Assembly (NCBI RefSeq): GCF_044324785.1
Contig: NZ_CP172127.1
Strand: one strand, 5' to 3'
DNA: 64,000 bases
DNA from: Escherichia coli
GTDB lineage: Bacteria; Pseudomonadota; Gammaproteobacteria; Enterobacterales; Enterobacteriaceae
This document shows, piece by piece, positions 37,001 to 40,000 of the stretch; the stretch's first letter is position 1, and each line of letters opens with the position of its first letter. The position numbers were made by a program.

Positions 37001-40000
37001 GAGGATCTCGGTGCAGGTACGCATGTTGAAGTCATTGCGATAGAAGGGATAACGCTGATCATCCGTGCGGTCATCGCCTGATGCGACGCTGACGCGTCTT
37101 ATCATGCCTACAAAAATATGCCCGAATCGTAGGCCGGATAAGTCGTTTACGCCGCATCCGGCGGTTATGCGCTGATGCCTGATGCGGCGCGGGCGCGTCT
37201 TATCATGCCTGGAAGTCTGCGCCCGAATCGTAGGCCGCCTCCGCTATATTAACTGGCATTGGCAAATTACTCGTCACTACCTTTATTCATGTTTTTTTGG
37301 TCTTCATCCGGATAATGTTTTTTTAGATATTCCAGGACGTTTTTATTGACCTTGTGTTGCGTATACACCCACCCTTTCCAGTAATCAGGCTGGTCCAGGT
37401 AAACTTCTGGCGGAATGGTGAAATCAGAAAGCGTTAACCATTCGGCTAACAGATCAGGGTTTCGTTTCTGGATTAACTGCAACAGCATAATCAGTGACAT
37501 AGCTGAGGCAGGAGCCGTACTATCGCCACTCAAATATTTCCACACTGTTGACCGGTTCGAACGAAAAAGGATCGGTAGCAATGCCCGGTCCAGATTCATT
37601 TCATTAAAAATCTTCTCAAATTCATTCATTTAAATTTTCCTGCCTGGCGTAAACCTCTTAAAAATTGAGATTTATCAAAGAAACGCATTTTAGCACACAT
37701 CAGGAACCGGTTCACGTTTAGTCCAGAAACAGAATTTATTTCGCTTATCAAAACAAGTCTTTACTCTTTTTTACATTGAAAGAGCACAAAATGATTTTCG
37801 ATTTTATTTATATAAGAAACATTTTTTGTTTCTTATTGGTGGTGTTTACGCTTACACCAGACAAAAATGCGCTTTACATCACACAAATGGCGGCGTAGAT
37901 TTCGATTAAATTGCAACGCAGATTAATTCTTATAACAACGTTTTACGTTGCTTATAGAAACAAATATGTGACTTACTTTGAAAGAGAAAAAATGCATGAA
38001 AACTGTAAAGCTGTCTTTACTGGCTGTCGTTGTTGCTACCGTGGTAAGTCCATCTGCGTTTGCGGGTGATACTGTTGAGGCGGCAACGACAGAATTAACG
38101 GCAATCCAGCCAGGAATGTCGCAATCGGAAATTGATCAGAAAATTGGTCGATTTTTAGAAAGGACAGGGAATAGTGCAGCCGCACAAAATTATCTGATTG
38201 CGCATGATTACCGGACAACGACACCTCAGGAAAATACAGCTGCCTCTCCCGTACAGCCCGCCAATACGCTGAACCCGATAACCAATCAAGCGCAGACCGA
38301 CCGCGACAACGGGCAGGATACCGCCATTCAGGACGCACAACATGCCGCCAACTGGGCTTCAATGAAAGCTGATGACGCGCAGCACGCCATTATGGTGGCG
38401 CAGACGGATATTGATGCCAATAAAGCCGCCATCGCCGACACCCGTAATGATGTCTCCGCAGTGCAGTCAGACGTCACCAACATAAAAGGCGATGTCGCAC
38501 ATGCCCAGTCAACGGCTGACCATGCCAACGCTAACGCCAACACCGCTCTGATTAACGGCGTCAAACTTTCCGGTGCTGTGACAGAAAACAAAAACAACAT
38601 CGAACAGAACCGCAGCGATATTGCTGACCAGCAGAAACTGTTGGCATCAAACGAGCAAAAACAGATCGTCCGCGACAACGGGCAGGATACCGCCATTCAG
38701 GACGCGCAACATGCCGCCAACTGGGCTTCACTGAAAGCTGATGACGCGCAGCACGCCATCACGGTGGCGCAGACGGATATTGATGCCAATAAAGCCGCCA
38801 TCGCCGACACCCGTAATGATGTCTCCGCAGTGCGGTCAGACGTCACCAACATAAAAGGCGATGTCGCACATGCCCAGTCAACGGCTGACCATGCCAACGC
38901 TAACGCCAACACCGCTCTGATGAACGGCGTCAAACTTTCCGGTGCTGTGACAGAAAACAAAAACAACATCGAACAGAACCGCAGCGATATTGCTGACCAA
39001 CAGCAACAACTCGACGAAACCCGGAAAATCGTTGCCGCCACCGGGGATGTACAGACTGCCGCCCGATATCAGAGCATGATTGACGCCAGACAGACAGCCA
39101 CTGCCAATGCGCAACAGGCACAAGCTGACACCCAGCAGCAACAAATGGACGATCAGCAGAAACAAATCGACGCGACGCAAAAAACGGTTTTCGCACTTGG
39201 CGATGCCCAGACCAACGCACATTATCAAGAGATGGTTAACGCCGGACTGAGAGCACAAAATGATGCGAATGCGCGTACTGCAGCAGAACAAAAACAAAAA
39301 ATAGATACTCTGGCGACTAACCAGGCAACGCAACAGCATATCGATAGTGTGCAGTACGGGGAACAAATTCAGCGTCTGGCGCAAGACTCAACACAAACGC
39401 ATGAACAAATTGACAGCCTGACACAAGACGTAACCCAAACGCATCAGCAGTTAAGCAACACGCAAAAACGAGTAGCGGATAATAGCCAGCAGATTACTAC
39501 GCTCAATAACCATTTCAGTTCGCTGAAAAACGAAGTTGAGGACAACCGTAAAGAAGCCAATGCGGGAACTGCATCAGCCATCGCTATCGCCTCACAACCA
39601 CAGGTGAAAGCCGGTGACTTTATGATGATGTCAGCGGGAGCGGGAACCTTCAACGGTGAATCTGCGGTGTCTGTCGGAACATCTTTTAATGCCGGAACGC
39701 ATACCGTGATTAAAGCCGGTGTCTCTGCGGATACGCAATCTGATTTCGGCGCGGGTGTCGGCGTGGGATATTCTTTCTAATATTCCAATCCTCAATATAA
39801 ATAAGAGCAAGGAAGCTTGCCGGGTTTCACCTCTTCATTAATTTGTACATTATTTAAGGTTAACAATGATGAATAGTTCCATTAAATCGTTTTCCCTGCT
39901 GGCGGTTATATTACTGGCTGGCTGTAGTTCACCCACTTCCCGCATCGCAGATTGCCAGGCGCAGGGCGTCAGCCATGACACCTGTTATCTCGCAGAACAA

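What the first reader, a model, noticed from the sequence alone, without database searches (positions are those of the whole stretch)
37267..37995. Divergent small ORF and a 366-bp AT-rich control region with inverted repeats and a short upstream ORF
The 120-aa hypothetical protein is transcribed divergently from the adhesin gene across an unusually long, very AT-rich intergenic region. That region contains inverted repeats (AAGAAACattttttGTTTCTT at 37,814-37,834; GGTGTttacgcttACACC at 37,841-37,858) and a 35-codon ORF (37,790-37,897, MIFDFIYIRNIFCFLLVVFTLTPDKNALYITQMAA) preceded by the same TTGAAAGAG element that precedes the adhesin start. This layout is suggestive of a dedicated regulator plus a regulated or silenced promoter, possibly targeted by nucleoid-associated proteins, but it is weak evidence.
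Basis: inference. Interest (0 to 1): 0.4.

Follow-up and report, generated by a model that had tools for sequence, protein, structure and literature searches.

The report
Small HTH regulator beside adhesin operon
The 120-aa gene is z0640 of E. coli O-island 29, an unstudied Cro/XRE-type DNA-binding protein that always sits back-to-back with a trimeric-autotransporter adhesin operon across a conserved control region full of AGAAAC repeats, so it is probably that operon's local regulator; the short upstream ORF is not real.

Summary
The window is E. coli chromosome. The finding lies in O-island 29 (OI-29), inserted between ybbJ and cueR. The 120-aa ORF is z0640. The "adhesin" is z0639, a YadA-anchor trimeric autotransporter (TAA) published in 2018 as the transcription factor "GmrA".

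z0640 matches no Pfam or NCBIfam family. Its model (pLDDT 92) is an XRE/Cro-type helix-turn-helix domain plus a helical C-terminal domain. The family is tiny, about 23 clusters among 1.8 billion proteins. In 9 of 10 informative lineages, at five different chromosomal sites, it lies divergent from a TAA and/or its lipoprotein partner.

The 366-bp, 32% GC spacer keeps conserved islands:
- an extended -10 for z0640;
- a -35/-10 promoter for the TAA;
- AGAAAC motifs at fixed positions, 5-8 per spacer against about 1 expected. One motif abuts the z0640 -10. Two form a perfect 25-bp palindrome.

Best reading: a local HTH autoregulator and regulator of the adhesin operon. Binding is inferred, not shown. 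It is a new member of a known kind, of moderate interest.

The parts
37267..37629 (-). z0640: a 120-aa XRE/Cro-type HTH protein with an N-terminal HTH (about residues 1-65) and a helical C-terminal domain (about 66-116).
37630..37995 (.). 366-bp AT-rich divergent control region.
   Evidence: 32% GC against 55% for the window. Its length is kept at 359-379 bp in the closer lineages. Conserved islands are separated by freely varying sequence.
37687..37695 (-). Predicted extended -10 promoter of z0640 (TGCTAAAAT on the minus strand), with a predicted TSS near 37680.
   Evidence: The block ATTTTA(G/C)CAC is conserved in E. coli, L002-L004, L007, L008 and L009, and partly in L011. This is a prediction only; the simple scan did not call it because the -35 is weak.
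37677..37684 (+). Site S1, AAAGAAAC, abutting the z0640 -10 and covering its predicted +1. Candidate autoregulatory operator.
   Evidence: It is among the more conserved blocks of the spacer, alongside the TAA promoter, S5 and the RBS. It is 100% identical among the E. coli alleles. The same GAAAC-to-ATTTTACCAC arrangement is seen in L008, whose HTH is 48% identical.
37724..37742 (+). Site S2, CAGAAAC-N7-ATTTC, an imperfect palindrome with the same geometry as the central one.
   Evidence: CAGAAAC is conserved at the same position in E. coli and L002-L005. Direct-repeat family D6 links it to 37815-37832.
37760..37774 (-). TTTAC-N5-TTTAC, which reads GTAAA-N5-GTAAA on the z0640 strand. An OmpR/CpxR-type tandem box and candidate host input.
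   Evidence: Sequence. Conserved in the E. coli alleles, L002-L004 and L008, and only partly in L007. The match to the CpxR/OmpR consensus is from memory, not tested.
37791..37898 (+). 35-codon uORF of the finding. Judged not to be a gene.
   Evidence: Truncated or absent in other E. coli alleles and absent in other genera. It covers the least conserved part of the spacer, 0.36-0.38 cross-genus identity. It ends inside the -10 of the conserved TAA promoter, so it lies upstream of the predicted TSS.
37812..37836 (.). Site S3, a perfect 25-bp palindrome ATAAGAAACA-TTTTT-TGTTTCTTAT (two AGAAAC half-sites), centred about -84 from the predicted TAA TSS.
   Evidence: I4, 100% complementary. Arms of 10 bp or more occur in 1.1% of shuffles. 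The arms are invariant in 3 of 4 E. coli alleles (one mismatch in CS5L) and kept in L005, with an approximate version in L003, while the spacer varies.
37841..37858 (.). Second inverted repeat of the finding, GGTGT-N8-ACACC. Judged to be chance.
   Evidence: 5-bp inverted repeats occur about 8 times per shuffle. The repeat is broken in the O157 allele and reduced to 4 bp in O145 and CS5L.
37873..37901 (+). Predicted sigma-70 promoter of the TAA operon: -35 TTTACA, 17-bp spacer, -10 TAGATT. Predicted TSS near 37908, giving a 5' UTR of about 88 nt.
   Evidence: Promoter scan hit. It is among the best conserved non-coding blocks: 0.70 identity across genera and 0.99 within E. coli.
37947..37961 (+). 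Site S5, GTTGC-TTATA-GAAAC in the 5' UTR (about +40 to +54). In the other E. coli alleles it is the perfect everted pair GTTTC-TTATA-GAAAC.
   Evidence: (C/T)AGAAAC is invariant in all 10 aligned sequences. Degenerate copies lie at 37909-37917 and 37932-37940, where other genera have GAAAC.
37978..37986 (+). TTGAAAGAG overlapping the TAA Shine-Dalgarno. The upstream copy at 37776-37784 is a chance match.
   Evidence: The RBS block A(A/T)GAGAA is conserved, but the 9-mer identity with 37776-37784 is specific to this allele. Such a repeat is expected in 49% of shuffles.
37996..39780 (+). z0639, also called 'gmrA' or ECs0548 'Saa-like protein': a 594-aa trimeric autotransporter with a Sec signal peptide, a coiled-coil stalk and a YadA anchor.
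   Evidence: Pfam YadA_anchor E=1.2e-11. Signal peptide MKTVKLSLLAVVVATVVSPSAFA, by inspection. The published gmrA deletion and cloning primers flank or begin this ORF. Ogura 2007 calls it Saa-like.
39866..40288 (+). z0638: a 140-aa lipoprotein co-conserved with the module.
   Evidence: Lipobox LLAGC, by inspection. It is 46-47% identical to the partner genes in L011 and L015. Primer mapping.
40285..40488 (+). 67-aa predicted membrane protein, the last gene of the operon. It overlaps z0638 by 4 bp.
   Evidence: ORF. A 65-71-aa gene sits at the same place in L002-L004, L008 and L015.

Best explanation
The finding is the regulatory end of O-island 29, a four-gene adhesin module. z0640 (HTH) faces z0639 (TAA, published as 'gmrA'), z0638 (lipoprotein) and a 67-aa membrane protein.

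z0640 encodes a small XRE/Cro-type helix-turn-helix protein of a narrow, undescribed family. I propose that it binds AGAAAC-containing operators in the 366-bp spacer.

The spacer carries two back-to-back promoters about 230 bp apart:
- an extended -10 promoter for z0640 at 37687-37695;
- a TTTACA-17-TAGATT promoter for the adhesin operon at 37873-37901.

The AGAAAC sites sit at distinct places relative to these promoters:
- one lies on the predicted z0640 start site, which suggests negative autoregulation;
- a perfect palindrome lies at about -84 of the adhesin promoter;
- further copies lie at about +5 to +54 in its 5' UTR, which suggests control of the adhesin operon, most likely repression or modulation.

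Host inputs probably act on the same AT-rich region. Candidates are the OmpR/CpxR-type TTTAC-N5-TTTAC box and H-NS.

For: Identity. The published OI-29 primers map z0640 to this ORF and gmrA/z0639 to the YadA-anchor gene.

Synteny. The gene is divergent from a YadA_anchor gene and/or the z0638-like lipoprotein in E. coli, L002-L004, L005 (remnants), L007, L008, L009, L011/L012 and L015. These loci occupy five different chromosomal sites, and HTH identity falls to 21-48%.

Cis elements.
- GAAAC/GTTTC occurs 5-8 times per spacer against about 1 in dinucleotide shuffles. The total is 43 against 10.7, with a maximum of 22 in 500 shuffles, and the positions are conserved.
- 5 of the window's 26 AGAAAC copies fall in these 366 bp, Poisson P about 5e-7.
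- The 25-bp perfect palindrome has P=0.011, with conserved arms and a variable spacer.
- The promoter blocks are the conserved islands.

Motif variation. More distant clades carry different repeated or palindromic motifs at analogous places: AGAAACCA in L008, AGAACA in L011, TGATAATTATCA in L009. This is what would be expected if operator and recognition helix diverge together.

Expression. z0640, gmrA and z0638 are all transcribed in DMEM (RPKM 44, 96, 20) and all fall to 0 on HeLa-attached cells (PMC5826968 Table S3).
Against: - The only published test of z0640, its deletion, gave no motility phenotype, and adhesin expression was not measured (PMC5826968).
- Most AGAAAC copies are single or have variable spacing and orientation, which is unusual for a rigid HTH dimer.
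- GAAAC and TTTAC pentamers also resemble OmpR-family half-sites, so a host regulator could own them.
- The co-silencing of z0640 and the TAA operon fits a shared upstream signal as well as it fits local control.
- Both promoters and start sites are predictions. The z0640 promoter was not called by the consensus scan.
- The window protein does not reach any Pfam HTH gathering score.
Confidence: 0.55

Rival explanations
1. [not shown]
For: The spacer is 32% GC. GTAAA-N5-GTAAA at 37760-37774 is conserved in most lineages. gmrA transcription is reported to depend on osmolarity, pH and temperature (PMC5826968). All three OI-29 genes are switched off together on host cells. The variable geometry of the GAAAC copies suits a non-dimeric or oligomerising binder.
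Against: The module has inserted at five different sites in several genera yet keeps its own HTH gene. The repeated motif differs between HTH clades, which a conserved host factor would not predict. Only one TTTAC pair shows the 10-bp phasing expected of OmpR-family tandem sites.
Confidence: 0.25
2. [not shown]
For: The closest structural neighbours are antitoxin HTH domains (HigA2, MqsA) and Aca proteins. One distant homologue (P0039, in L013 and L014) sits in a different, mobile-element-like context. In L005 the HTH is intact while the TAA has decayed.
Against: There is no toxin, acr or restriction-modification gene next to it in any TAA-linked locus. It is absent from the phage and true plasmid collections. 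Linkage to the TAA/lipoprotein operon persists at 21-48% identity.
Confidence: 0.1
3. One reading: the 35-codon upstream ORF or an RNA structure in the leader controls adhesin expression, by a leader peptide, attenuation or an RNA thermometer.
For: The ORF exists, with an A-rich SD-like element. gmrA expression is temperature dependent.
Against: The ORF is not conserved within E. coli or beyond. It lies upstream of the conserved promoter. There is no terminator-like site in the spacer. The 5' UTR fold is no better than shuffles, z=+0.61. There is no Rfam match in the spacer.
Confidence: 0.03
4. Nothing functional beyond two ordinary promoters. The repeats would be by-products of AT-rich composition and shared ancestry.
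For: IR2, the 9-mer repeat and 7-bp inverted repeats are all at chance level.
Against: The dinucleotide-controlled enrichment of GAAAC holds in 7 independent spacers. The positions are conserved while the surrounding sequence has diverged to 36-50% identity.
Confidence: 0.07

Closest known systems
Small XRE-type autoregulators with an HTH plus a dimerisation domain: anti-CRISPR-associated Aca2/Aca1 and restriction-modification controller (C) proteins
   Different: No acr or restriction-modification genes are present; the controlled genes are an adhesin operon. There is no detectable sequence homology. The spacer has many single AGAAAC copies rather than one or two tight inverted repeats. The full-length superposition is poor, with rmsd about 7-9 Å.
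Type II antitoxin HTH domains (HigA2 C-terminal domain, MqsA C-terminal domain)
   Same: Best Foldseek matches, with probability 0.99 and rmsd 2.4 Å over 63 residues. Weak Pfam MqsA_antitoxin hit, E=0.08, or 2.4e-5 for a family member.
   Different: There is no toxin gene beside it in any locus. The MqsA zinc domain is absent. The C-terminal domain is unrelated.
NadR-NadA of Neisseria meningitidis (a repressor controlling a trimeric autotransporter adhesin; from general knowledge)
   Same: A TAA gene under a specific repressor, with operators both upstream of the promoter and in the 5' UTR region.
   Different: NadR is a MarR-family protein encoded elsewhere. nadA also phase-varies through a tetranucleotide tract, and no such tract or GATC site is present here.
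H-NS silencing of the E. coli TAA genes upaG/ehaG (from general knowledge)
   Same: A horizontally acquired TAA gene behind an AT-rich upstream region.
   Different: This is a different locus and a different TAA. Here a dedicated HTH gene travels with the adhesin. H-NS binding at OI-29 has not been examined.
'GmrA' of OI-29 (Yang et al. 2018, PMC5826968)
   Same: Same island. The paper names z0638, z0639 (gmrA) and z0640 and shows that all three are transcribed.
   Different: The published transcription factor is z0639, which by sequence is the secreted YadA-anchor autotransporter. The HTH protein is z0640, which the paper left as 'hypothetical' and tested only for motility.

Membership tests
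XRE/Cro-C1 (lambda-repressor-like) HTH DNA-binding proteins | Five-helix lambda-repressor-like fold, with helices 2-3 forming the HTH | tested here: met
   [not shown]
XRE/Cro-C1 (lambda-repressor-like) HTH DNA-binding proteins | Sequence match to a curated HTH profile (Pfam HTH_3, HTH_31 and similar) at the gathering score | tested here: not met
   The window protein hits only MqsA_antitoxin, at 13.5 bits against a cut-off of 30, and has no NCBIfam match. Family members give only sub-threshold hits, the best at E=2.4e-5.
XRE/Cro-C1 (lambda-repressor-like) HTH DNA-binding proteins | Sequence-specific DNA binding | not testable with these tools
   Only circumstantial evidence is available: a repeated AGAAAC motif in the adjacent spacer.
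Type II toxin-antitoxin antitoxin (MqsA/HigA-like) | An adjacent cognate toxin gene in the same operon | tested here: not met
   The neighbours are ybbJ (with REP elements between) and the divergent TAA. No toxin family appears in any TAA-linked locus.
Self-regulating local repressor (C-protein/Aca-like logic) | An operator overlapping the regulator's own promoter or start site | tested here: inconclusive
   AAAGAAAC at 37677-37684 abuts the conserved TGnTAAAAT at 37687-37695. However, the promoter and TSS are predictions and binding is untested.
Upstream ORF / leader peptide control | Conservation of the small reading frame among relatives | tested here: not met
   The frame is truncated in the O145 allele, has no ATG in CS5L, is absent in other genera, and covers the least conserved part of the spacer.
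Transcription attenuator / RNA thermometer / known RNA family | A stable or conserved RNA structure, a terminator hairpin with a U-run, or an Rfam match | tested here: not met
   There is no terminator-like site in the spacer. The 5' UTR MFE z-score is +0.61. The only Rfam hits are REP/naRNA4 elements outside the spacer.
H-NS-silenced horizontally acquired locus | An AT-rich regulatory region bound by H-NS | not testable with these tools
   AT-richness is met, at 32% GC against 55%. H-NS occupancy cannot be assessed here.
CpxR/OmpR-type response-regulator box | Tandem pentamers GTAAA-N5-GTAAA (consensus recalled from memory) upstream of a promoter | tested here: inconclusive
   There is an exact sequence match on the z0640 strand at 37760-37774. 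It is conserved in most but not all lineages. Binding is not testable.
Trimeric autotransporter adhesin (for the neighbouring z0639/'GmrA') | A C-terminal YadA-like membrane anchor plus an N-terminal signal peptide | tested here: met
   PF03895 scores E=1.2e-11 in the window allele and 1.1e-11 in the O157 allele, both above the gathering score. The signal peptide with an AFA cleavage motif is seen by inspection. No DNA-binding family is detected.

The most novel reading that the evidence does not exclude
Probability: 0.35. Interest if true: 0.6.

Novelty: new member of a known kind. Interest (0 to 1): 0.42.

Why it matters
OI-29 is present in about a quarter of complete E. coli genomes: 1415 of 5426 match the region. 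Carriers include O157:H7, O145:H28 and strains isolated from humans, poultry and cattle. Its adhesin gene has entered the literature as a transcription factor. The only gene in the island with a DNA-binding fold has never been tested for regulating its neighbours.

Tried and rejected
- Pfam, NCBIfam, PHROGs and PDB sequence searches with the 120-aa protein found no family.
- The first AlphaFold run, on 13 close homologues, gave an unusable model of pLDDT 57. It became usable only after distant homologues from the 1.8-billion-protein profile search were added.
- One profile hit, a 2772-aa repeat protein (P0028), was discarded as a compositional artefact.
- The uORF was rejected on conservation.
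- The TTGAAAGAG pair and IR2 were rejected on shuffles and alleles.
- An RNA structure or thermometer in the 5' UTR was rejected. Rfam hits only REP elements outside the spacer.
- Dam- or GATC-based phase variation was rejected, since there is no GATC in the spacer.
- A test of 10-bp phasing of xxxAC pentamers, for an all-OmpR reading, found only one pair phased (inspection).
- The frameshifted z0640 variant (P0018) was examined as a natural knockout, but it sits in an assembly where every neighbouring gene is fragmented, so it is uninformative.
- Plasmid and phage collections gave no true hits.
- The afdb50 fold library was unavailable.
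Full report
**Where we are.** The window is E. coli chromosome. The order is cnoX, fetBA, qmcA, ybbJ, then the island, then cueR, then a type I secretion system for a giant SiiEA/BapA-like adhesin. The island between ybbJ (ending at 37081) and cueR (40492-40899) holds four genes:
- the 120-aa ORF (37267-37629, minus strand);
- a 594-aa protein with a YadA-like anchor (37996-39780);
- a 140-aa lipoprotein (39866-40288);
- a 67-aa membrane protein (40285-40488).

The region from the z0640 gene to 105 nt into the adhesin gene (37267-38100) is found in 1415 of 5426 complete E. 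coli genomes. It is always chromosomal and single copy.

**Check of the observation.** The spacer is exactly 366 bp and 32% GC, against 55% for the window. The uORF coordinates are off by one; the true range is 37791-37898.

The first inverted repeat is in fact a perfect 25-bp palindrome, ATAAGAAACA-N5-TGTTTCTTAT, at 37812-37836. In dinucleotide-preserving shuffles of the spacer:
- 7-bp arms appear 40% of the time, but arms of 10 bp or more only 1.1% of the time;
- 5-bp inverted repeats like the second one appear about 8 times per shuffle;
- an exact non-overlapping 9-mer repeat like TTGAAAGAG appears in 49% of shuffles.

**Identity from the literature.** The island is O-island 29 of EHEC O157:H7. 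Yang et al. 2018 (PMC5826968) describe it as 2,643 bp containing z0638, z0639 (named gmrA) and z0640. I mapped their lambda-Red primer arms onto the window and onto O157:H7 strain SS17.
- The z0640 arms flank exactly the 120-aa ORF.
- The gmrA arms flank exactly the YadA-family autotransporter gene.
- The z0638 arms flank the lipoprotein.

Their expression primers begin ATGAAAACTGTAAACGTAGCTTTA, which encodes the signal peptide MKTVNVAL, and end at the autotransporter's C-terminus. So the finding's "hypothetical protein" is z0640, and the "adhesin" is the published "transcriptional activator GmrA".

By sequence, both the window allele and the O157 allele of that protein match only the YadA_anchor family above threshold, at E about 1e-11. 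They match no DNA-binding family. Ogura et al. 2007 had listed it as a "Saa-like protein". z0640 has been tested only for motility, with no effect.

The same paper's RNA-seq shows z0640, gmrA and z0638 expressed in DMEM at RPKM 44, 96 and 20. All three fall to zero on HeLa-attached bacteria.

**The 120-aa protein.** It has no Pfam, NCBIfam, PHROG or PDB sequence match. The only trace is a weak MqsA-HTH hit at E=0.08. Homologues are rare: 21 clusters in 5.8 billion proteins, and 23 representatives in a profile search of 1.84 billion.

**Conserved linkage.** I looked up genomic contexts for homologues from 72% down to 21% identity. In Pseudocitrobacter-like genomes (L002-L004), a metagenome (L007), L008, L009 and L011/L012, the gene is divergent from a YadA_anchor gene followed by a lipoprotein of about 138 aa, and usually also by a gene of about 65 aa. 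In Symbiopectobacterium (L005) the TAA and lipoprotein are remnants. In L015 the partner is the lipoprotein plus the small protein, without a TAA.

The modules sit at five different chromosomal sites:
- between ybbJ and cueR;
- between qmcA and fetA (or qmcA and a LysR-family gene in L015);
- near nrdAB;
- next to ribE;
- elsewhere.

Only one distant homologue, P0039, has an unrelated context. The protein is absent from phages and true plasmids.

**Anatomy of the spacer.** I aligned four E. coli alleles and six other lineages. The alignment shows conserved islands in otherwise free sequence.

(i) ATTTTA(G/C)CAC at 37687-37696 reads as an extended -10, TGnTAAAAT, on the z0640 strand. It lies 58 nt upstream of the z0640 ATG.

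(ii) G(C/T)GCTTTACAT...GGCGTAGATT at 37870-37901 contains TTTACA-17-TAGATT. This is the only forward promoter-like hit of the consensus scan in the spacer. It predicts a start near 37908 and an 88-nt leader.

(iii) The A(A/T)GAGAA Shine-Dalgarno of the TAA is conserved.

(iv) There are copies of (A/T)AGAAAC at fixed positions. In spacer coordinates they fall at 51-54, 97-99, about 187-202 (the palindrome), about 287 and about 328-331. GAAAC/GTTTC occurs 5-8 times per spacer against about 1 in shuffles. The pooled count is 43 against 10.7, and no shuffle exceeded 22. Five of the 26 AGAAAC copies in the whole 64-kb window fall in these 366 bp.
- One copy (37677-37684) abuts the z0640 -10 and covers its predicted start.
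- The palindrome lies about 84 bp upstream of the predicted TAA start.
- Further copies lie in the leader. One of them is an everted pair, GTTTC-TTATA-GAAAC, which is perfect in the O157, O145 and CS5L alleles.

(v) TTTAC-N5-TTTAC at 37760-37774 reads as GTAAA-N5-GTAAA towards z0640. That is the CpxR/OmpR-type tandem form, by a consensus recalled from memory.

More distant HTH clades have other repeated or palindromic motifs at comparable places: AGAAACCA, AGAACA, and TGATAATTATCA/TTATCATGATAA.

Within E. coli, the z0640-proximal half of the spacer (37630-37775) is nearly invariant. From about 37776 onwards, the spacer and the TAA passenger vary as a cassette, except for the promoter block.

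**What is rejected.**
- The uORF is intact only in some alleles, with 5 of 35 residues changed in O157. It is cut to 15 codons in O145, lacks a start codon in CS5L and has no counterpart in other genera. It spans the least conserved segment and ends inside the -10 of the conserved promoter, so it would not be on the TAA mRNA.
- The TTGAAAGAG identity is specific to this allele.
- The leader RNA folds no better than shuffles.
- The spacer contains no terminator-like site, no Rfam match and no GATC.

**Comparison and novelty.** In logic it resembles small XRE autoregulators such as Aca2, Aca1 and C-proteins. It also resembles repressor-controlled TAA genes such as NadR-nadA. It is not an antitoxin, an Aca protein or a C-protein, because the defining partner genes are absent. 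The protein family is undescribed and its linkage to TAA modules has not been reported in the papers I could search. Even so, a divergently transcribed local HTH regulator is a familiar kind of system, so I rate this a new member of a known kind.

**Verdict.** Interest is moderate, at 0.42. It is raised mainly by the mismatch between the published "GmrA transcription factor" and its autotransporter sequence, with the real HTH gene sitting untested next door.

Noticed in passing
window 37996-39780 (and L017 4730-5746): The gene published as the transcriptional activator 'GmrA' (z0639; Yang et al. 2018) is, by primer mapping, the YadA-anchor trimeric autotransporter. It has a Sec signal peptide and no detectable DNA-binding family. 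A cytoplasmic DNA-binding role is hard to reconcile with this architecture.
   Followed up: yes
window 38293-39007: A 369-bp (123-aa) tandem duplication, 1.9 copies at 97% identity, lies in the TAA stalk. TAA alleles in other E. coli are 338, 436 or 594 aa. In near-identical strains (N3, 118UI) RefSeq annotates only a 340-349-aa C-terminal piece. In 118UI, the one strain checked, the full 594-600-aa ORF is intact.
   Followed up: partly
window about 37776 (boundary), 37630-37995: Among E. coli alleles the z0640 gene and the left half of the spacer are almost invariant. The right half and the TAA passenger diverge to 64-89% identity. This suggests cassette-like recombination of the adhesin with a breakpoint inside the control region.
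   Followed up: partly
window 37042-37108 and 37132-37209: REP/BIME elements lie between ybbJ and the 3' end of z0640, at the island boundary. They match Rfam naRNA4 (RF02564) at 64.6 bits, above the gathering score.
   Followed up: no
window 39866-40488; L015 4004-4626: The 140-aa lipoprotein and the roughly 67-aa membrane protein travel with the HTH gene even where no TAA is present (L015). The lipoprotein stays 46-47% identical while the HTH drops to 21-32%. They may be TAA biogenesis helpers, comparable in idea to SadB of Salmonella (recalled from memory, no sequence link found).
   Followed up: partly
L009 4770-5057 (reverse complement): In a distant clade the spacer carries the perfect palindromes TGATAATTATCA (next to the HTH -10) and TTATCATGATAA (on the TAA side) instead of AGAAAC. 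They look Fur-box-like but could be that clade's operator.
   Followed up: no
window 40492-44230 and beyond: cueR overlaps by 4 bp the end of an HlyD-family adaptor gene, and so appears to lie at the tail of a type I secretion operon (ABC transporter, HlyD). That operon serves a giant SiiEA/BapA-like adhesin, corresponding to the neighbouring O-island in O157:H7. In strain CS5L this secretion system is missing and only a pseudogene fragment remains.
   Followed up: no
PMC5826968 Suppl. Table S2 against window 37677 onwards: The plasmid used to complement the gmrA deletion starts at AAAGAAACGCATTTTAGCAC (window 37677). It therefore carries almost the whole control region, with all AGAAAC sites and the CpxR/OmpR-like box, on a multicopy vector but without z0640. 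Titration of a DNA-binding factor is an uncontrolled variable in those experiments.
   Followed up: no
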